From contig VGWI01000003.1 in assembly GCA_016873655.1 (NCBI GenBank), positions 1,737 through 65,736 on the forward strand: 64,000 nucleotides of DNA, read 5' to 3'. The position numbers were made by a program, and so were the translations under genes. The stretch comes from Lentisphaerota bacterium. Its GTDB lineage: Bacteria; Verrucomicrobiota; Kiritimatiellia; UBA8416; VGWI01. The notes beneath the pieces were generated by a model, which was given only the letters and a program-made list of their open reading frames with translations, was not told the DNA's origin and made no database searches. Positions 1,972 through 36,243 of this stretch are shown piece by piece. Positions within the stretch are counted from its first letter, which is position 1. Each line of letters opens with the position of its first letter.

Positions 1972-2787
1972 CTACAATGCATCGCTGATGCGGCGCAACA
2001 CCCGCCACAGCCGCCCAAGCGCCGCCACGGGCATCGCATTGTCGCCGTCGGAGAGCGCTGTCTCCGGCCTGACATAGGTCTCGATGAAAACCGCGTCGCA
2101 GCCGGCGGCCACCGCCGCGCGCGCAAGGCCGGGAGCCATCCTGGATTCGCCGCCCGATCTGTCGCCGCGCCCTCCGGGTTTCTGCACGCTGTGTGTCGCG
2201 TCGAAAACGACCGGCACCCCGGATTCCCTCATCAGCAGGAGCCCGCGCATGTCAACCACAAGGTCGTTGTACCCGTGCGTCGTGCCGCGCTCGGTGAGCA
2301 GCACGTTCCTGTTTCCGGTGCTTTCAACCTTGGCCACCGCGTTCTTCATGTCCCACGGAGCCATGAACTGGCCCTTCTTGATGTTCACGCAGCGGCCGGT
2401 ACGGCCGGCGGCAAGAAGCAGATCCGTCTGCCTGCACAGGAAAGCCGGTATCTGGAGCACGTCCACCGCCACCCCGGCGGCCTCGGCCTCCGGCACGGAG
2501 TGCACGTCGGTAAGAACAGGCATGCCGAACCGGTCCTTGACCTCGCGCAGGATCTCCAGCCCCTTTTCGAGCCCCGGCCCGCGGAATGAGCCCGACGACG
2601 ACCTGTTGGCCTTGTCGTAGGACGCCTTGAATATCAGCGGTATGCCTTCCCTCGCCGCGAGTGTCGCAAGACGGCGCGCGAGCCCGACGCATTTCTTCCT
2701 GTCTTCGATCACGCACGGACCCGCTATCATGGCCAGCGGCGCGCCGCCGCCGATCGAGACAGGCCCTATCTTCACTCTCCTGGTCAT
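1972..2787 (-). CDS. kdsA: 2-dehydro-3-deoxyphosphooctonate aldolase (KDO-8-phosphate synthase)
   Basis: 271 aa; MTRRVKIGPVSIGGGAPLAMIAGPCVIED...KASYDKANRSS...HSVQKPGG match KdsA/DAHP-synthase family motifs. Confidence 0.9.
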   Translation of the reverse strand: MTRRVKIGPVSIGGGAPLAMIAGPCVIEDRKKCVGLARRLATLAAREGIPLIFKASYDKANRSSSGSFRGPGLEKGLEILREVKDRFGMPVLTDVHSVPEAEAAGVAVDVLQIPAFLCRQTDLLLAAGRTGRCVNIKKGQFMAPWDMKNAVAKVESTGNRNVLLTERGTTHGYNDLVVDMRGLLLMRESGVPVVFDATHSVQKPGGRGDRSGGESRMAPGLARAAVAAGCDAVFIETYVRPETALSDGDNAMPVAALGRLWRVLRRISDAL

Positions 2788-3596
2788 GGCTTCTCCTCCC
2801 CGCCGCGTTCCGCGGCGAGTTCAGGCCACCGCCTGCGCAGCGCCTCTTCCGCCCGCGCTACATCGGCGGGCGTGTCCACACCGACCCCGCCCTTCCGCCA
2901 CGGAAGCACCTTCATCCTGGCGCCAAGGTGCAGGGCCCGCAACTGCTCGAGCTTCTCCGCCCGCTCAAGGAGACACGGCGGCTCGGCAACGAGCCTTTCC
3001 AGGAACGCGCGCCTGTAGGCGTAGATCCCGATGTGCCGCCAGTGCAGCGCGTCCAGGCCGGCCTCTGGATCGCGCACGTACGGGATCGAATGCCGCGAGA
3101 AGTACATCGCCAGCCCGTTCGCCGCGCATACCACCTTCACCACGGCAGGACTCTTCATGTCCTCGTCGTTCTCGATCCGCGACGCCGCCGTCGCCATGTC
3201 CAGCGAGGGATCGGCCAGCATCGCGCGCGCAAGCTCGTCCACGAGCGCCGGGTCCACAAGCGGTTCGTCGCCCTGGATGTTGATCACAACCGCGGCACCG
3301 CACCCGGCAACCGCCTCGGCGGCCCTGTCGGTGCCGGACGGATGCGACGGGCTGGTCATCACGGCAATCCCGCCGGCGCGCTCGACCGCCTCGACAATCC
3401 GCCCGTCGTCGGTTGCGACAACCACGGCGTCGAGCAGCCTCGCCTCGCCGACGCTCCGGAGAACCCATTCGATCATCGGGCGGCCGCAGAGCCGCACCAG
3501 CATCTTGCCGGGCAGACGGGTGGAGCCCCACCGGGCGGGAATAACGCCGACCACCTTCGCGCCGGCCGGCATGCGTGCGGAGGCGTCAGGAAACAT
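2784..3596 (-). CDS. kdsB: 3-deoxy-manno-octulosonate cytidylyltransferase (CMP-KDO synthetase)
   Basis: VIPARWGSTRLPGKML...GTDR...IQGDEPL motifs. Internal ATG at 3596 has a GAGGAG SD. The annotated ORF start at 3728 is an upstream GC-rich extension. Confidence 0.85.
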   Translation of the reverse strand: MFPDASARMPAGAKVVGVIPARWGSTRLPGKMLVRLCGRPMIEWVLRSVGEARLLDAVVVATDDGRIVEAVERAGGIAVMTSPSHPSGTDRAAEAVAGCGAAVVINIQGDEPLVDPALVDELARAMLADPSLDMATAASRIENDEDMKSPAVVKVVCAANGLAMYFSRHSIPYVRDPEAGLDALHWRHIGIYAYRRAFLERLVAEPPCLLERAEKLEQLRALHLGARMKVLPWRKGGVGVDTPADVARAEEALRRRWPELAAERGGEEKP

Positions 3597-11723: not shown

Positions 11724-11868
11724 GCGCACACCTTCGTGGTTCCGCTCTGCCTTCGCGTTGAGAGTCCGCCCATATAGGCGGTCTCCGTCGCCAAAGTCCA
11801 GAGTATGCTTCGAGTTCACAGGCGTCCCGGCGGTGACCGCCGGCTCCTGTGACTCGCCTTTTCAAGCC

Positions 11869-12043
11869 ACTGTCATCCCATAGGGAACGTTTAATGACCA
11901 CAAAACCCCGTTATTGCTGATGTCTTGGAATAGTATGCGAGATTGTGATTCTTGGACGTTTTTTCGTAATCCTAATCGTAATCATCATCATAATCCTCTC
12001 TGTGACAGATGATTACGATTAGGATTCCTGTGGGACGCCAGTG
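11869..12043. mobile_element. MITE-like non-autonomous element, copy 1 (about 175 bp) flanked by a 10-bp direct repeat TTTTCAAGCC (11859-11868 and 12044-12053)
   Basis: About 85% identical to a second copy at 34993-35182. Imperfect about 17-bp terminal inverted repeats CACTGTCATCCCATAGG / CCTGTGGGACGCCAGTG. Internal perfect 19-bp hairpin AATCCTAATCGTAATCATC ... GATGATTACGATTAGGATT. Different flanking direct repeats at the two copies look like target-site duplications. Confidence 0.55.
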
Positions 12044-12083
12044 TTTTCAAGCCTCCCTTCGTGGCGGTGCGGACTCGCTGAGC

Positions 12084-12159
12084 GTCCCTTCGTGACGCTG
12101 CTACAGGCCAGATACGCGTGAAAACGGGTCTTCTGTAGCCGCCGCACGAAGGGCGACGC
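12084..12159. repeat. Inverted pair of REP-like 23-27-bp GC-rich units (GTCCCTTCGTGACGCTGCTACAG ... CTGTAGCCGCCGCACGAAGGGCGACGC) forming a long imperfect palindrome
   Basis: Both arms are members of the CTGTAGCCGTCGCACGAAGGGCGACG family that is tandemly repeated at 19545-19673. Confidence 0.45.
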
Positions 12160-12338
12160 TCCTCCATTCTGTATCCCGCTGCGCAAATCAAAAATCGGTC
12201 ATTCGGAACGCCAGCATCCGGTTTCACGATATCTCCGCCCAATCGCACACAACCGCCCTCCGCACGCAACCTTGTGCCGCATAGGTATTTACCAATACAG
12301 CGCGGCACATCTTCCCGTTTCTTGTTGGGCGTTCACGG

Positions 12339-19544: not shown

Positions 19545-19673
19545 CTGCAGCCGTCGCACGAAGGGCGACGTGTCCCCCTGTACCCGTTCGCACGCAGGGC
19601 GACGTGTCCCCCTGTAGCCGTCGCACGAAGGGCGACGTGTCTCCCTGTAGCCGTCGCACGAAGGGCGACGTGA
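19545..19673 (+). repeat. Tandem array of four 33-34-bp REP-like units (CTGTAGCCGTCGCACGAAGGGCGACGTGTCCCC), each carrying a 6-bp-stem hairpin CGTCGC-ACGAAGG-GCGACG
   Basis: Units at 19545-19577, 19578-19611, 19612-19644 and 19645-19673 abut directly with no spacers, about 20 nt after the fusA stop. Degenerate relatives lie at 19728-19764 and 12084-12159. Confidence 0.7.
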
Positions 19674-19880
19674 CAACCGGACACCGAGGGCTACCCCGAC
19701 CTATTCACGAAGCCGCCTCGTGGATAGGTCGCCCTGCGGGCTTCGACTCCGGCCCTGCGGGCCTGCGCTCAGGGTAGCCCTGAGCAAGGTGCGCAGCACC
19801 GCGTCGATGCCTGCTGCGGCGCACGTTGCGCCGCTGCAGGCGGTTGTGAATGAACGTGCAGCGTTCATGAATAATCCGGG

Positions 19881-21957: not shown

Positions 21958-22045
21958 GGAGGGATGGCTGAGTGGACTATAGCACCGGTCTTGAAAACCG
22001 GCGCGCCGCAAGGCGCCGTGGGTTCGAATCCCACTCCCTCCGCCA
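21958..22045 (+). tRNA. tRNA-Ser (anticodon TGA), class II with long variable arm, CCA encoded
   Basis: GGAGGGATGGCTGAGTGGAC...CCGGT-CTTGAAA-ACCGG...GTGGGTTCGAATCCCACTCCCTCCGCCA. 7-bp acceptor stem GGAGGGA/TCCCTCC, anticodon loop CTTGAAA, T-loop GGTTCGAATCC, 88 nt. Confidence 0.85.
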
Positions 22046-34041: not shown

Positions 34042-34866
34042 ATGCATTCGCGTCTGCCAACAGCGTTCTGTGTCGCGGCTTTTCTGCTCCTTGCTGCCGG
34101 CGGGTGCGGAAGGAAGCCTCCTCCGGAACCGGCGACTCTCGGCATCTTCGTGATGGATCCGCTCGCGCTCCCTCTCTCCTGCGAATGCATCGCCGGCTTC
34201 GCGCAGCGCGATTACTCGAGGCTCGCGAAGTTCCTGGGAAACAGGCTCGGGCTTGAGCCTTCCCTCGCGTTCGGCACTTCGCTGGATTCGCCGGCCGCCG
34301 CGTCAGCCGACCTGGTAATCGGCAAACGCTCGGTGATCGAGTCCGAGTCGGCCCGCATGGATATCCGACTCTCGCTCGCCGCGGCCTTGACAGACAATGA
34401 CGGCGCCACCATGTTCCGGGGTCTCTTCATCGTGCGCGGGGATGACCCGGCCGTGGACCTGGCCGGCCTCGCCGGCAGGCGTCTCCTCTTCGGCCCGGCG
34501 AATTGCACGGAGAAACATTCAGCCGCGATAGAGGCGCTGACGACGGCGGGCGTCACCGTCCCCGCCACCGCCCGCACCGTCCGCGCCACTTGCACGATCG
34601 CGGCGATTGATGTCGCGGACGGAAACGCCGATGCGGCGGTCATATCCGACTACGCCGCGCCGCTGCTGCCGGCATGCGGAGCGATAAGGACCAACGAGCT
34701 GCGGGTCGTCGGCAGAACCGCCCCCGTTCCCTTCATAGGCGCGTACGTTTCAGGCCGCTGCAGCCGCACACGCGCGGCGCGAATCACCACCGCGCTGTTC
34801 GAGGCGGGCAGAGAACCGACCCTGCGGGTCGCTCTCGAAACACGCGACGGGTTCGTGGCGCCGTAG
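34042..34866 (+). CDS. PhnD/SsuA-like periplasmic substrate-binding lipoprotein
   Basis: Lipoprotein signal MHSRLPTAFCVAAFLLLAAGGC. Type-2 periplasmic binding fold motifs (GLFIVRGDDP...LAGRRLLFGPANCTEK). Confidence 0.55.
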   Translation: MHSRLPTAFCVAAFLLLAAGGCGRKPPPEPATLGIFVMDPLALPLSCECIAGFAQRDYSRLAKFLGNRLGLEPSLAFGTSLDSPAAASADLVIGKRSVIESESARMDIRLSLAAALTDNDGATMFRGLFIVRGDDPAVDLAGLAGRRLLFGPANCTEKHSAAIEALTTAGVTVPATARTVRATCTIAAIDVADGNADAAVISDYAAPLLPACGAIRTNELRVVGRTAPVPFIGAYVSGRCSRTRAARITTALFEAGREPTLRVALETRDGFVAP

Positions 34867-34992
34867 CAGACCTTCACCGTGCGGTCGGCCTCAACGATCA
34901 TGCCGCACCTTCCAGGGCTCGTCGAGATCCAGCAGGGCCGCGCCGACGCTGTACCCCTTGACCGTGCAGTTCGGCATGATGCCGTGAAACGG

Positions 34993-35182
34993 CATCACTG
35001 TCATCCCGTAGGCAACGTTTCACGATCACAAAACCCCGCGTTTGCTGATGTTTTAGAATAGTCTGCGGGATTGTGATTCTTGAACTGTCCTTCGTAATCC
35101 TGATCGTAATCGTAATCATAGTCCTCTCTTTGGCAGATGATTACGATTACGATCAGGATTACGATTACGCGATGCCTGTGGG
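34993..35182. mobile_element. MITE-like non-autonomous element, copy 2 (about 190 bp) flanked by a 14-bp direct repeat ATGCCGTGAAACGG (34979-34992 and 35183-35196)
   Basis: Same termini (CACTGTCATCCCGTAGG...CCTGTGGG) as copy 1. Internal stem extended to a perfect 26 bp (GTAATCCTGATCGTAATCGTAATCAT / ATGATTACGATTACGATCAGGATTAC) with compensatory changes relative to copy 1. Lies about 200 bp upstream of wzm. Confidence 0.6.
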
Positions 35183-35379
35183 ATGCCGTGAAACGGAATC
35201 AGCCATTGCCCTGCAAGCAAAAAGGGGGACATGCCCCCCGGCGATTCGGGCGCGGCCCGGAATTGGGCTTTCAGACGGAATGGGAAAATGTTTCCATCGC
35301 TCACGCGCTCTTTCCGGCAGGGACCCGGCAAAGACTCAACGGCGCCTTGTTTCGACAATCTTACCGCGGATGTTTCACT

Positions 35380-36243
35380 ATGTGCGAACACAGCCCGCTC
35401 GCCGGAAAAACCGGATGCCCGGAAACAGCGCAGACCGTCTTCGATTCGGCGCACCGCCAGCCGCCGGCAATCGAAGAGCTTGTCCAGCTATGGCGCTACC
35501 GCGACCTCGTGGCGCAGCTCGTCATCCGCAACATCAAGGCCCGCTACAAGCGTTCCGTGCTTGGAGTCGTTTGGACGATGCTGAATCCGCTGCTGATGAT
35601 GGCGGTGCTCTCGCTCGTGCTGCACGGGCTCTTCGGGCTCCGCGTGCCGAACTACTCCGCGTACCTGCTTGCCGGCCTTCTGCTCTGGCAGTTCTTCGCC
35701 CAGGCAACCCTGGCCAGCACAAGCGAGATCGTGTGGGGCGCAAGCCTCGTCAAGCGCATCTACGTGCCGCGGACGGCATTCGCCGTAGCCGCCGTCGGGA
35801 ACGGACTGGTCAACCTGGCTCTCTCGCTTGTCCCGCTTGCGCTGATAATGGCCGTCCTCGGAATCCCGGTCGGCAGAGCGGCGCTGACGATCCCGGTTTC
35901 TGTCCTGCTGACGGCAATGTTCACGCTCGGCGTGGCTCTGTTTGTTTCGTCGGTGGCAGTCTATTTCGCCGACTTCATGGAGATATACCAGGTTGCCCTG
36001 ACAGCGTGGATGTACCTGACACCCGTGATCTATCCGATAGACATCGTCCCGGAACGTTACCGATGGCTTTTCAAGTTGAACCCCATGTGCCACCTCGTCG
36101 ACATCTTCCGCGCGCCGATACACATGAACGCCCTGCCGGCCATGGAGTCCCTCTGCGCCGCTGCCGGCGCCTCCGTGCTGGTCCTGCTGCTTGGCTGGCT
36201 GTTCTTCACACGGAATTCCGATGAAATCGCCTACCGCGCCTGA
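35380..36243 (+). CDS. wzm: ABC-2 type polysaccharide export permease (Wzm/KpsM/TagG family)
   Basis: Six predicted TM helices; conserved N-terminal QLWRYRDLVAQLVIRNIKARYKRSVLGVVW typical of ABC-2 glycan exporters. The listed ORFs start within the MITE and translate the repeat (MITITIRITI...); the real start is ATG 35380. Confidence 0.8.
   Translation: MCEHSPLAGKTGCPETAQTVFDSAHRQPPAIEELVQLWRYRDLVAQLVIRNIKARYKRSVLGVVWTMLNPLLMMAVLSLVLHGLFGLRVPNYSAYLLAGLLLWQFFAQATLASTSEIVWGASLVKRIYVPRTAFAVAAVGNGLVNLALSLVPLALIMAVLGIPVGRAALTIPVSVLLTAMFTLGVALFVSSVAVYFADFMEIYQVALTAWMYLTPVIYPIDIVPERYRWLFKLNPMCHLVDIFRAPIHMNALPAMESLCAAAGASVLVLLLGWLFFTRNSDEIAYRA

What the first reader, a model, noticed from the sequence alone, without database searches (positions are those of the whole stretch)
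34979..35196. MITE-like element copy 2 with 14-bp flanking direct repeat and compensatory mutations preserving a 26-bp hairpin
A roughly 190-bp element (34993-35182) is bounded by the direct repeat ATGCCGTGAAACGG on both sides. Its termini (CACTGTCATCCCGTAGG ... CCTGTGGG) match those of copy 1 at 11869-12043. The internal stem-loop has base substitutions and a 6-bp insertion relative to copy 1, all exactly mirrored in the opposite arm (GTAATCCTGATCGTAATCGTAATCAT / ATGATTACGATTACGATCAGGATTAC). This indicates selection on the hairpin, as RNA or as cruciform DNA. The two copies having different flanking direct repeats is the hallmark of transposition with target-site duplication. No transposase is present in the window. 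ORF callers read through the element (MITITIRITI...).
Basis: seen in the sequence. Interest (0 to 1): 0.7.

Follow-up and report, generated by a model that had tools for sequence, protein, structure and literature searches.

The report
Small transposon relic with hairpin
This is one copy of a previously undescribed small non-coding jumping-gene remnant (a MITE) found in freshwater Verrucomicrobiota-type bacteria; it is a real mobile-element family of an ordinary kind, and its striking hairpin comes mostly from two opposed arrays of a six-base repeat.

Summary
The element is real and belongs to a family. By family consensus, copy 2 spans 34996-35190 (195 bp) and copy 1 spans 11868-12043 (176 bp). 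They are 86% identical and AT-rich (42-46% GC against 64.5% for the window). About 17 further copies occur in lake metagenomes and Verrucomicrobiota MAGs.

The family has a 17-nt terminal inverted repeat (CACTGTCATCCCATAGG) and a 9-bp target-site duplication. Eight insertions have perfect 9/9 duplications, each with a different sequence.

It is part of a 19-bp repeat (18/19) made of the element's last 9 nt, the 9-bp duplication (AAACGGCAT/AAACGGAAT) and one more base. Only copy 2 has this extra piece.

The hairpin is real: 28 perfect pairs in copy 2 and 19 in copy 1. It consists of NTAATC hexamers facing GATTAN hexamers. Mirroring of the variable bases is only modestly above chance. Hexamer number changes between close relatives. 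A 110-bp family member with no hairpin still has a perfect duplication, so the hairpin is not needed for movement.

The same hexamer arrays bracket multi-copy four-helix-bundle (23S rRNA IVS protein) genes in related contigs. I found no autonomous transposase and no empty site.

Verdict: a new member of a known kind (MITE).

The parts
34978..34986 (+). Extra copy of the element's right-terminal 9 nt (GATGCCGTG), lying just left of the left target-site duplication. Together with the next 10 nt it forms the palindrome GATGCCGT-GAA-ACGGCATC.
   Evidence: 19-bp repeat, 18/19; among 18 family copies examined, only copy 2 has its own right end repeated 9 bp from its left end. DNA fold of the left junction -10.3 kcal/mol, z = -3.9.
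34987..34995 (+). Left target-site duplication of copy 2, AAACGGCAT
   Evidence: matches 35191-35199 at 8 of 9 positions. The family-wide duplication length of 9 bp comes from 8 perfect cases.
34996..35012 (+). Left terminal inverted repeat of copy 2, CACTGTCATCCCGTAGG
   Evidence: The same 17-mer, with at most 1 mismatch, starts every family copy.
35013..35091 (+). Left module: conserved subterminal sequence shared by type A copies and, inverted, by the right end of type B elements.
   Evidence: mean column identity 85% across 16 copies; no conserved secondary structure or covariation; type B right end matches in inverse orientation.
35092..35119 (+). Hairpin left arm, 28 nt, made of NTAATC hexamers (GTAATC CTGATC GTAATC GTAATC ...)
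35120..35136 (+). Hairpin loop AGTCCTCTCTTTGGCAG (family loop consensus CTCTCTGGGGCAGGA)
35137..35164 (+). Hairpin right arm, 28 nt, made of GATTAN hexamers and perfectly complementary to 35092-35119
35175..35190 (+). Right terminal inverted repeat of copy 2, CCTGTGGGATGCCGTG. It is degenerate and 1 nt shorter than in copy 1 (CCTGTGGGACGCCAGTG).
   Evidence: Homologous right ends occur in all complete copies.
35191..35199 (+). Right target-site duplication of copy 2, AAACGGAAT
11859..11867 (+). Left target-site duplication of copy 1, TTTTCAAGC
   Evidence: 9/9
11868..12043 (+). Copy 1 of the same MITE (176 bp). Left inverted repeat 11868-11884, hairpin arms 11968-11986 / 12008-12026 (19 bp), right inverted repeat 12027-12043.
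12044..12052 (+). Right target-site duplication of copy 1, TTTTCAAGC
   Evidence: 9/9

Best explanation
Copy 2 (34996-35190) and copy 1 (11868-12043) are old copies of a miniature inverted-repeat transposable element (MITE), called type A here. The family lives in freshwater Verrucomicrobiota-like bacteria.

Mechanism. The element encodes nothing. It is moved in trans by a DDE-type transposase that recognises the roughly 17-nt terminal inverted repeat CACTGTCATCCCATAGG. That enzyme makes 9-bp staggered cuts in the target, leaving a 9-bp duplication. The copies, the inverted repeats and the 9-bp duplications are shown. The enzyme class is inferred, and the enzyme itself was not found.

The 14-bp repeat. 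This is most simply a relic of two elements, or a tandem duplicate, that shared one duplication, with most of the upstream element since deleted. This step is inferred.

The hairpin. It is a passenger module made of an array of NTAATC hexamers facing an array of GATTAN hexamers around a conserved 15-nt loop. It is not needed for transposition. It changes quickly by gain and loss of hexamers. It stays largely self-complementary because both arms are built from the same unit, with some extra mirroring from selection or from hairpin-templated repair. The same arrays bracket multi-copy four-helix-bundle (PF05635) gene cassettes in related genomes, so the module is shared between elements and is not specific to this MITE.
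For: Two copies:
- The window copies are 85-86% identical.
- They are AT-rich islands: GC 0.42 and 0.46 against 0.645 for the window.

Family:
- 11 hits in species-representative genomes, all MAGs and several named Verrucomicrobiota.
- 20 hits in metagenome contigs.
- One more copy in L041.

Terminal inverted repeats:
- Perfect 17/17 in the related type B elements.
- 14/17 in copy 1.

Target-site duplications, perfect 9/9 and all different:
- TTTTCAAGC, AACGAGGGT, TATTCATCC, TTGTAAAAT, GTCTGGATT, TAATCGGGC, AATATTATT in type A.
- GGCCGGATT in type B (L023).
- Each has a chance probability of about 4e-6.

Hairpin not required:
- L012 is 110 bp, lacks the hairpin and has a perfect duplication.

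Hairpin is generic to hexamer arrays and unstable:
-. L026, L030a and L030b, and also L034 and L035, have near-identical left modules but different hexamer counts.

Module shared with other elements:
- The arrays flank PF05635 genes in 7 independent loci.

No known RNA family:
-.

No coding capacity:
- The small ORF has no conserved start. L021b has GTC in place of GTG.
- In copy 2 the ORF runs 383 aa, out of frame, into the ABC-2 permease gene.

The extra right-end copy is unique to copy 2.
Against: - No autonomous element with these ends was found, and the transposase family is unknown. The genome and metagenome scans required 20-21 fixed bases of the left end and could have missed an IS that shares only the outer 12-17 nt. 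A 17-mer scan of viral contigs gave only chance hits.
- No empty site was found. The window organism has no relative closer than 47% identity at the neighbouring gene. A second attempt at another locus gave at best 63%. Joined-flank BLAST against all fetched loci found nothing.
- About half of the type A copies lack a recognisable duplication. Assembly chimeras, recombination between copies or decay could explain this, but none was shown.
- Mirroring of the variable hexamer base exceeds permutation controls (P about 0.01), so some constraint or repair acting on the stem is not excluded.
- The origin of the extra 9-mer left of copy 2 is not demonstrated.
Confidence: 0.8

Rival explanations
1. 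One reading: a roughly 190-bp element (34993-35182) whose target-site duplication is the 14-bp ATGCCGTGAAACGG.
For: The 14-mer is exact on both sides and does not recur elsewhere in the window.
Against: - The first 8 nt of the right-hand 14-mer are homologous to the element's right end in every other complete copy (GGGACGCCAGTG, GGGATGCTACTG and similar).
- Eight other insertions have 9-bp duplications directly abutting CACTG... and ...TG.
- The 9 bp abutting copy 2's ends match at 8 of 9 positions.
- No other copy repeats its own end in its flank.
Confidence: 0.05
2. The hairpin is a selected functional structure, and selection explains the perfect 28-bp stem. As RNA it could be an RNase III processing site, a stability element or a small RNA. 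As DNA it could be a cruciform or hairpin recognised by other machinery.
For: - Every full-length type A copy folds far better than shuffles.
- The loop sequence is conserved across genomes.
- Mirroring of variable bases exceeds permutation (10 of 1000 and 3 of 200).
- There is a clean double change between the window copies: CTAATC/GATTAG against CTGATC/GATCAG.
- The same arrays form the stem around PF05635 genes, the gene family named after 23S rRNA intervening sequences, whose stems are RNase III substrates (established knowledge).
- A group II intron sits exactly at the base of the hairpin in L031. This fits class C introns that target stem-loops (established knowledge; inferred here).
Against: - Stems are imperfect in many copies. 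For example, L035 has 2 perfect hexamer pairs out of 6 per arm, and L026 has 1 from 5 left-arm and 4 right-arm hexamers.
- Hexamer number differs between near-identical relatives.
- Hairpin-less members persist and carry duplications.
- No T-run follows the stem in the sequence, and the scan of 34700-35500 listed no plus-strand terminator-like site.
- No Rfam match.
- Palindromes can self-correct by intrastrand templating without selection (established knowledge).
- No expression data are available.
Confidence: 0.2
3. The element carries a small gene for a hydrophobic peptide, in the manner of a type I toxin, read from the GTG in GATTGTGATT through the hairpin (for example VILGRFFVILIVIIIIILSVTDDYD* in copy 1).
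For: The frame is open from that GTG into the right arm in the copies I translated by hand (w_c1, w_c2, L007-L010; sequences). The product would be a hydrophobic stretch followed by an acidic tail.
Against: - The pattern follows automatically from six-base units. NTA-ATC codes V/L/I then I. GAT-TAN codes D then Y or stop.
- The start is not conserved (GTC in L021b).
- No ribosome-binding spacing was seen in the sequence.
- Peptide length and C-terminus vary with hexamer number.
- Copy 2 has no stop and reads 383 aa into the next gene out of frame.
- Hairpin-less members lack the ORF altogether.
Confidence: 0.03
4. The two window copies are not transposed copies but remnants of a segmental duplication, or a chance similarity.
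For: Only two copies are in the window, and both lie on the same strand.
Against: - Similarity stops exactly at the inverted repeats.
- The flanks are unrelated, and each copy has its own 9-bp flanking repeat.
- Dozens of copies occur in other genomes at unrelated loci.
Confidence: 0.01

Closest known systems
MITEAba12 of Acinetobacter (mobilised by ISAba12), PMC6382973
   Same: - A small non-coding element (113 bp) with imperfect 16-bp terminal inverted repeats.
- AT-rich, with 9-bp target-site duplications.
- Only a minority of copies still show the duplication (36 of 90). Here it is 7 perfect plus one 8/9 among about 17.
- Presumed to be mobilised in trans.
   Different: - No sequence similarity.
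- MITEAba12 has a co-resident parent IS with matching ends. No parent was found here.
- MITEAba12 folds only weakly (about -24 to -27 kcal/mol) and has no internal repeat-array hairpin.
- The host phylum is different.
Correia elements (Neisseria) and ERIC/IRU elements (enterobacteria): hairpin-forming MITEs that act at the RNA level
   Same: - Roughly 100-200-bp intergenic repeats that can be co-transcribed with neighbouring genes.
- They form long stem-loops that can affect transcript processing or stability (established knowledge, not tested here).
   Different: - In those elements the stem is formed by the terminal inverted repeats or by the whole element. Here it is an internal module of hexamer arrays.
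- Correia elements duplicate TA rather than 9 bp.
- RNA processing of the present element is untested.
IS4-family insertion sequences of the IS10/IS50 type
   Same: - They make 9-bp target-site duplications.
- Their ends begin CTG.. and contain ATCCCC-like motifs. IS10 has CTGATGAATCCCCTAATG, compared with CACTGTCATCCCATAGG here. This is recalled from memory and is a lead only.
   Different: - No transposase gene was found, so family assignment is untested.
- Several other IS families also give 9-bp duplications (IS1, the IS903 group of IS5, IS256, ISLre2, ISKra4).
REP/BIME extragenic palindromes mobilised by RAYT transposases (GTAG/CGTC-tagged REPs, PMC3733652)
   Same: Intergenic, repeated, hairpin-forming DNA. 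REP-like palindromes of this kind do occur elsewhere in the window (12133-12175 and 19545-19687).
   Different: - REPs are 20-40 bp. They have no terminal inverted repeats of this kind and make no target-site duplication.
- The present element is 176-195 bp, with inverted repeats and 9-bp duplications.

Membership tests
Bacterial MITE (non-autonomous element with terminal inverted repeats) | Small size (tens to a few hundred bp) and no transposase gene | tested here: met
   The copies are 176 and 195 bp. ORFs through the element are repeat artefacts. No Rfam family matches.
Bacterial MITE (non-autonomous element with terminal inverted repeats) | Terminal inverted repeats | tested here: met
   Copy 1 has CACTGTCATCCCATAGG against CACTGGCGTCCCACAGG, 14/17. 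Copy 2's right end is CAC-GGCATCCCACAGG. Type B relatives are perfect at 17/17.
Bacterial MITE (non-autonomous element with terminal inverted repeats) | Target-site duplications of fixed length and different sequence at each insertion | tested here: met
   Eight perfect 9-bp duplications of different sequence. Copy 2 matches at 8 of 9.
Bacterial MITE (non-autonomous element with terminal inverted repeats) | Multiple copies at unrelated loci | tested here: met
   Two copies in the window. About 17 distinct type A and about 8 type B copies in MAGs and metagenome contigs.
Bacterial MITE (non-autonomous element with terminal inverted repeats) | A cognate autonomous IS with the same ends and the same duplication length | tested here: inconclusive
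   - None among 31 collection hits.
- None in the window.
- The viral scan gave chance hits only.
- One candidate continuation (L031) turned out to be a group II intron.
- The search patterns may have been too strict.
Bacterial MITE (non-autonomous element with terminal inverted repeats) | Empty (unoccupied) sites in relatives | tested here: inconclusive
   No sufficiently close relative exists in the protein collection (best 47% and 63% identity). All six contigs that carry the copy-2 locus (L001-L006) contain the element. Joined-flank BLAST against fetched loci found nothing.
IS4-family derivative (IS10/IS50-like) | 9-bp target-site duplication | tested here: met
   This feature is not specific to the IS4 family.
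IS4-family derivative (IS10/IS50-like) | Ends matching those of a DDE (YREK-type) transposase-encoding IS | not testable with these tools
   No ISfinder-type library of IS ends was available, and no partner IS was recovered.
REP/BIME (RAYT-mobilised palindromes) | A 20-40-bp palindrome with a conserved GTAG/CGTC head and no target-site duplication | tested here: not met
   The element is 176-195 bp, with terminal inverted repeats and 9-bp duplications.
Intrinsic terminator or known structured RNA | A G+C-rich stem followed by a T-run, or a match to a curated RNA family | tested here: not met
   The stem is A+T-rich and is followed by GATTACGCGATGCC. The only terminator-like sites in 34700-35500 are on the minus strand at 35222-35239, outside the element. 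Rfam gave no meaningful match.

The most novel reading that the evidence does not exclude
The mirrored NTAATC/GATTAN hexamer-array hairpin may be an independent module that maintains itself. In the same lineages it forms the long stem around a high-copy family of four-helix-bundle (23S rRNA IVS protein / Avd-like, PF05635) gene cassettes.

Those cassettes have their own roughly 22-bp inverted repeats, GCGCATGAC.TTCCGTAGGG, which faintly resemble the MITE end. Two of them have 16-17-bp flanking direct repeats.

On this reading the MITE hairpin is a miniature of that cassette stem. It would be an RNase III-type or DNA stem-loop signal that also attracts further insertions, both of inverted-repeat elements and of a group II intron. 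This would point to a so far undescribed way in which IVS-protein genes spread.
Probability: 0.2. Interest if true: 0.6.

Novelty: new member of a known kind. Interest (0 to 1): 0.35.

Why it matters
- Annotation. It adds a MITE family, with two architectures, to a phylum where I found none described. A full-text search for MITEs in Verrucomicrobia gave six papers, none with the phylum in title or abstract; I did not open them. The TIR and hexamer strings matched only unrelated papers.
- Assembly. Several family copies lie at contig ends, which suggests the repeats fragment assemblies.
- Gene calling. It accounts for spurious ORFs such as MITITIRITI... and the 81-residue N-terminal extension of the ABC-2 permease ORF.
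- Method. A perfect long stem with apparently compensated changes can arise from opposed short-repeat arrays and is not by itself proof of selection.
- Follow-up. The link between the hexamer arrays and multi-copy four-helix-bundle gene cassettes is the most interesting lead. Those genes are widespread and their spread is unexplained.

Tried and rejected
1. Autonomous partner.
   - The genome and metagenome scans with the left-end pattern gave only MITEs and fragments.
   - A 17-mer scan of viral contigs gave 3 chance hits with no similarity beyond the 17-mer.
   - The L031/L014 continuation looked like the 5' end of an IS with an ORF (MTVSSKHRSEQYAVAA). It is a group II intron domain V-VI, RF00029, 41.1 bits.
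2. Empty sites.
   - The PhnD-like neighbour has no relative above 47% identity.
   - The PQQ-propeller neighbour of L021a gave only paralog-level hits of at most 63%.
   - Joined-flank BLAST against all loci found nothing.
3. Conserved structure in the left module. RNAalifold found none, with no covariation.
4. Known RNA family. No meaningful match.
5. My first permutation statistic (total matched bases over the best offset) was uninformative because it rewards overlap. I replaced it with perfect hexamer pairs and MFE.
6. The idea that repeating the right end 9 bp from the left end is a family habit is rejected. Only copy 2 shows it. L019 has a similar right-end, 9 bp, left-end geometry, but its interpretation is confounded by a larger repeat.
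7. Small-peptide gene: rejected (see rival explanations).
8. Literature searches for the end sequence and the hexamer strings found only unrelated primers. Searches on PF05635 and four-helix-bundle proteins listed nothing whose title or abstract concerns such cassettes.

Full report
**What is in the sequence**

The window is about 64.5% G+C. I ran Pfam on 55 ORFs of at least 150 aa. They include housekeeping and envelope genes (Lpt proteins, DnaX, EF-P, Obg, adenylate kinase, LpxC, a release factor and polysaccharide-synthesis genes). None matched a transposase, integrase or reverse transcriptase.

Two A+T-rich islands (GC 0.42 and 0.46) at 11868-12043 and 34996-35190 are 85% identical over 158 ungapped nt. 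They are 86.3% identical over all ungapped columns. Similarity stops at the ends of these intervals.

The 14-mer ATGCCGTGAAACGG is present exactly at 34979-34992 and 35183-35196 and nowhere else. Copy 1 has 19 perfect pairs (11968-11986 with 12008-12026). Both fold far better than shuffles, as RNA (z = -11.4 and -7.1 for the whole elements) and as DNA (z = -12.6 and -8.6 for the hairpins).

**A family exists**

The neighbouring gene places the window in JGI metagenome samples 3300020074, 3300020083 and 3300020109. All six contigs recovered for the copy-2 locus carry the element.

A scan of one genome per species with the left-end pattern found 11 loci. All are in MAGs, some named Verrucomicrobiota and others from a lake MAG series. 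A scan of metagenome contigs found 20 more. After removing duplicates of the same locus, there are about 17 distinct copies of the window's architecture, called type A here. One of them turned up later by chance in L041.

Type A consists of a left inverted repeat, a roughly 80-nt conserved left module, the hexamer hairpin, and a degenerate right inverted repeat.

A second architecture, type B, is about 303-327 bp and has perfect 17-nt inverted repeats CACTGTCATCCCMTAGG. It carries a different internal hairpin. Its right end is the inverted copy of the type A left module.

Two short type A derivatives (L012 at 110 bp, and L013) lack the hairpin altogether.

**Ends and target-site duplication**

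In seven type A copies the 9 bp immediately outside CACTG... and ...TG are identical on both sides, and they differ from copy to copy:
- TTTTCAAGC (window copy 1)
- AACGAGGGT (L012)
- TATTCATCC and TTGTAAAAT (L021)
- GTCTGGATT (L026)
- TAATCGGGC (L034)
- AATATTATT (L041)

Type B in L023 has GGCCGGATT. This is the signature of transposition with 9-bp staggered target cuts.

About half of the copies show no duplication. A comparable proportion was reported for MITEAba12, where 36 of 90 copies had one (PMC6382973). Here, metagenome assembly across repeats may add chimeric flanks.

**Copy 2's flanks**

By homology with all other copies, copy 2 ends at 35190 (...CCTGTGGGATGCCGTG). Compare copy 1...CCTGTGGGACGCCAGTG; copy 2 has lost one base.

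The 9 bp outside its ends are AAACGGCAT (34987-34995) and AAACGGAAT (35191-35199), a match at 8 of 9.

The full repeat is 19 bp with one mismatch (34978-34996 against 35182-35200). The left flank thus holds a second copy of the element's right-terminal 9 nt, placed exactly 9 bp from the left end. None of the other 17 copies examined has this.

The left copy is also a small palindrome, GATGCCGT-GAA-ACGGCATC.

The simplest reading is a relic of two adjacent elements, or a tandem duplicate, that shared one duplication, with the upstream one almost wholly deleted. A pre-existing end-like palindrome used as target is the alternative. I could not decide between them.

**The hairpin**

Parsing all complete copies shows the arms are arrays of 1-6 hexamers. 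They are NTAATC on the left and GATTAN on the right, around a conserved loop with consensus CTCTCTGGGGCAGGA. Any such pair of arrays is largely self-complementary whatever the order of units.

I permuted the order of the right-arm hexamers within each copy. The number of perfectly paired hexamers across 14 copies fell from 30 to 26.0 +/- 1.5, and 10 of 1000 permutations reached 30. The summed MFE changed from -398.8 to -373.7 +/- 10.4 kcal/mol, and 3 of 200 permutations reached the observed value. So the variable base is mirrored more than chance, but modestly.

Near-identical relatives differ in hexamer number and in arm matching (L026, L030a and L030b; L034 and L035). This indicates rapid slippage-type change.

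Between the two window copies:
- The left arm has substitutions only.
- The right arm of copy 2 is longer by 6 and by 14 nt.
- One true double change is present (CTAATC/GATTAG to CTGATC/GATCAG).
- The extra right-arm hexamer of copy 2 pairs with a left-arm hexamer that differs from copy 1 by two substitutions.

A hairpin-less member has a perfect duplication (L012), so the hairpin is not needed for transposition.

The left module shows no conserved structure or covariation. No Rfam family matches the element. The stem is not followed by a T-run, and the scan listed no plus-strand terminator-like site.

The small ORF through the hairpin is a by-product of six-base units. Its start is not conserved, and copy 2 has no stop.

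**The hexamer module elsewhere**

The same arrays occur without the MITE ends. In seven independent loci they bracket a 128-139-aa gene that matches PF05635, the 23S rRNA intervening sequence protein or four-helix-bundle protein (1.8e-19).

That gene exists in more than a hundred distinct variants at 75-98% identity, many on very short contigs. This suggests a multi-copy element.

The cassettes have outer inverted repeats of about 22 bp (GCGCATGAC.TTCCGTAGGG / CCCTACGGAG.TCATATGCGC). Two of them have 16-17-bp flanking direct repeats.

Solo hairpins also occur, in L031 and L044. Several inverted-repeat elements are inserted directly into hexamer arrays (L014/L031, L017/L036, L033). In L031 a group II intron (RF00029, 41.1 bits) abuts the inner end of the left module, exactly where the hairpin begins in intact relatives.

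The hairpin is therefore a shared module and an insertion hotspot. It is not a structure specific to this MITE.

**What could not be shown**

No autonomous IS with these ends was recovered. The transposase family is therefore unknown. The 9-bp duplication and a loose resemblance of the end to IS10/IS50 ends are leads from memory only.

No empty site was found. The window organism has no relative closer than 47% identity at the neighbouring gene. A second attempt at another locus failed as well.

**Comparison with what is known, and verdict**

The element meets the structural definition of a bacterial MITE: small, non-coding, with terminal inverted repeats, fixed-length duplications of varying sequence, and many copies. 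It resembles MITEAba12 in duplication length and in how often the duplication has decayed.

It differs from Correia and ERIC elements in where the stem lies. It differs from REP elements in size and in having duplications.

I found no description of this family. A full-text search for MITEs in Verrucomicrobia gave six papers, none with the phylum in title or abstract; I did not open them. The TIR and hexamer strings matched only unrelated papers.

It is a new member of a known kind. The repeat length, the boundaries and the inference of selection on the hairpin need correction.

Noticed in passing
window 12133-12175 and 19545-19687 (also 12085-12105 in inverse orientation): REP-like palindromes GTCGCACGAAGGGCGAC preceded by CTGTAGCC. 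Four tandem 33-34-bp units lie at 19545-19687, and one unit lies next to MITE copy 1. There are 5 matches against 0.86 expected. They resemble GTAG-tagged REPs (PMC3733652), but no RAYT gene was looked for.
   Followed up: partly
L023 4146-4448, L037 8584-8887, L020 716-1042, L036 1549-2115 (minus strands): A second MITE architecture (type B, about 303-327 bp). It has perfect 17-nt inverted repeats identical to the type A left end and its own 28-bp-stem hairpin (CTTCTGGAGGGCGAAGCTTGCTGAGCCG). Its right end is the inverted type A left module. L023 has the 9-bp duplication GGCCGGATT. L036 holds two copies in tandem.
   Followed up: partly
L026 2790-3365; L041 1395-1965; L042 1395-1975; L044 1330-1985; L045 about 1870-2460; L055 about 2400-3060: Multi-copy four-helix-bundle (PF05635, 23S rRNA IVS protein) genes are bracketed by the same NTAATC/GATTAN hexamer arrays and by outer inverted repeats of about 22 bp. 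Flanking direct repeats are 17 bp in L042 and 16 bp in L044. More than 100 distinct variants at 75-98% identity are in the protein collection. The gene's stop codon lies in the right array, so array length changes the C-terminus. This looks like a mobile cassette, and I found no description of it.
   Followed up: partly
L031 53-127 (+), adjoining the MITE left module at 128-224: Group II intron domains V-VI (RF00029, 41.1 bits against a gathering score of 40). The intron is inserted antisense into a type A MITE at the position where the hairpin's left arm begins in intact relatives, which is just 3' of the stem-loop on the intron's own strand. This fits class C introns that target stem-loops. 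The hairpin side lies off the contig, so this is inferred.
   Followed up: partly
L011 7114-7160: A roughly 45-nt fragment of the MITE left end supplies the last codons and the stop codon (..ACT GTC ATC CCA TAG) of a 2240-aa ORF. It is followed by HipB/HipA-like genes. In L041 a complete MITE likewise lies just upstream of an HTH/HipA gene pair.
   Followed up: no
L014/L031, L017/L036, L033, L020, L032 left flanks: Several inverted-repeat elements are inserted into other repeats. Some sit directly after hexamer arrays (..aatcgtaat|CACTG), and L032 sits inside another copy's left end (..cgtaggcaacgcttt|CACTG). About half of the duplications end in YGGAWT. This hints at a target preference for GGATT-like sequence or for self-like DNA.
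   Followed up: no
window 35073-36224, 35137-36243 (+) and 34898-35119 (-): Mechanical ORFs start inside the hairpin (MILELSFVILIVIVIIV..., MITITIRITITR..., MITITIRITKDS...). One of them extends the ABC-2 permease ORF by 81 codons. The JGI gene call starts at about 35380. This is an annotation hazard caused by the element.
   Followed up: yes
window 35222-35239 (-): A terminator-like G+C-rich hairpin with a T-run on the minus strand (GGGGGGCATGTCCCCC TTTTTGC). It lies between the MITE and the ABC-2 permease gene, with no obvious minus-strand gene upstream of it.
   Followed up: no
window 21958-22042 (+): A tRNA gene, the only Rfam match at gathering score in the window (61.2 bits).
   Followed up: no
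L019 2000-2130 and 250-270: A partial type A element (hairpin plus right end only) is nested inside another long inverted repeat built from CAGTATT/CAGTGTT heptamer arrays. This is a second kind of opposed short-repeat palindrome in these genomes.
   Followed up: no
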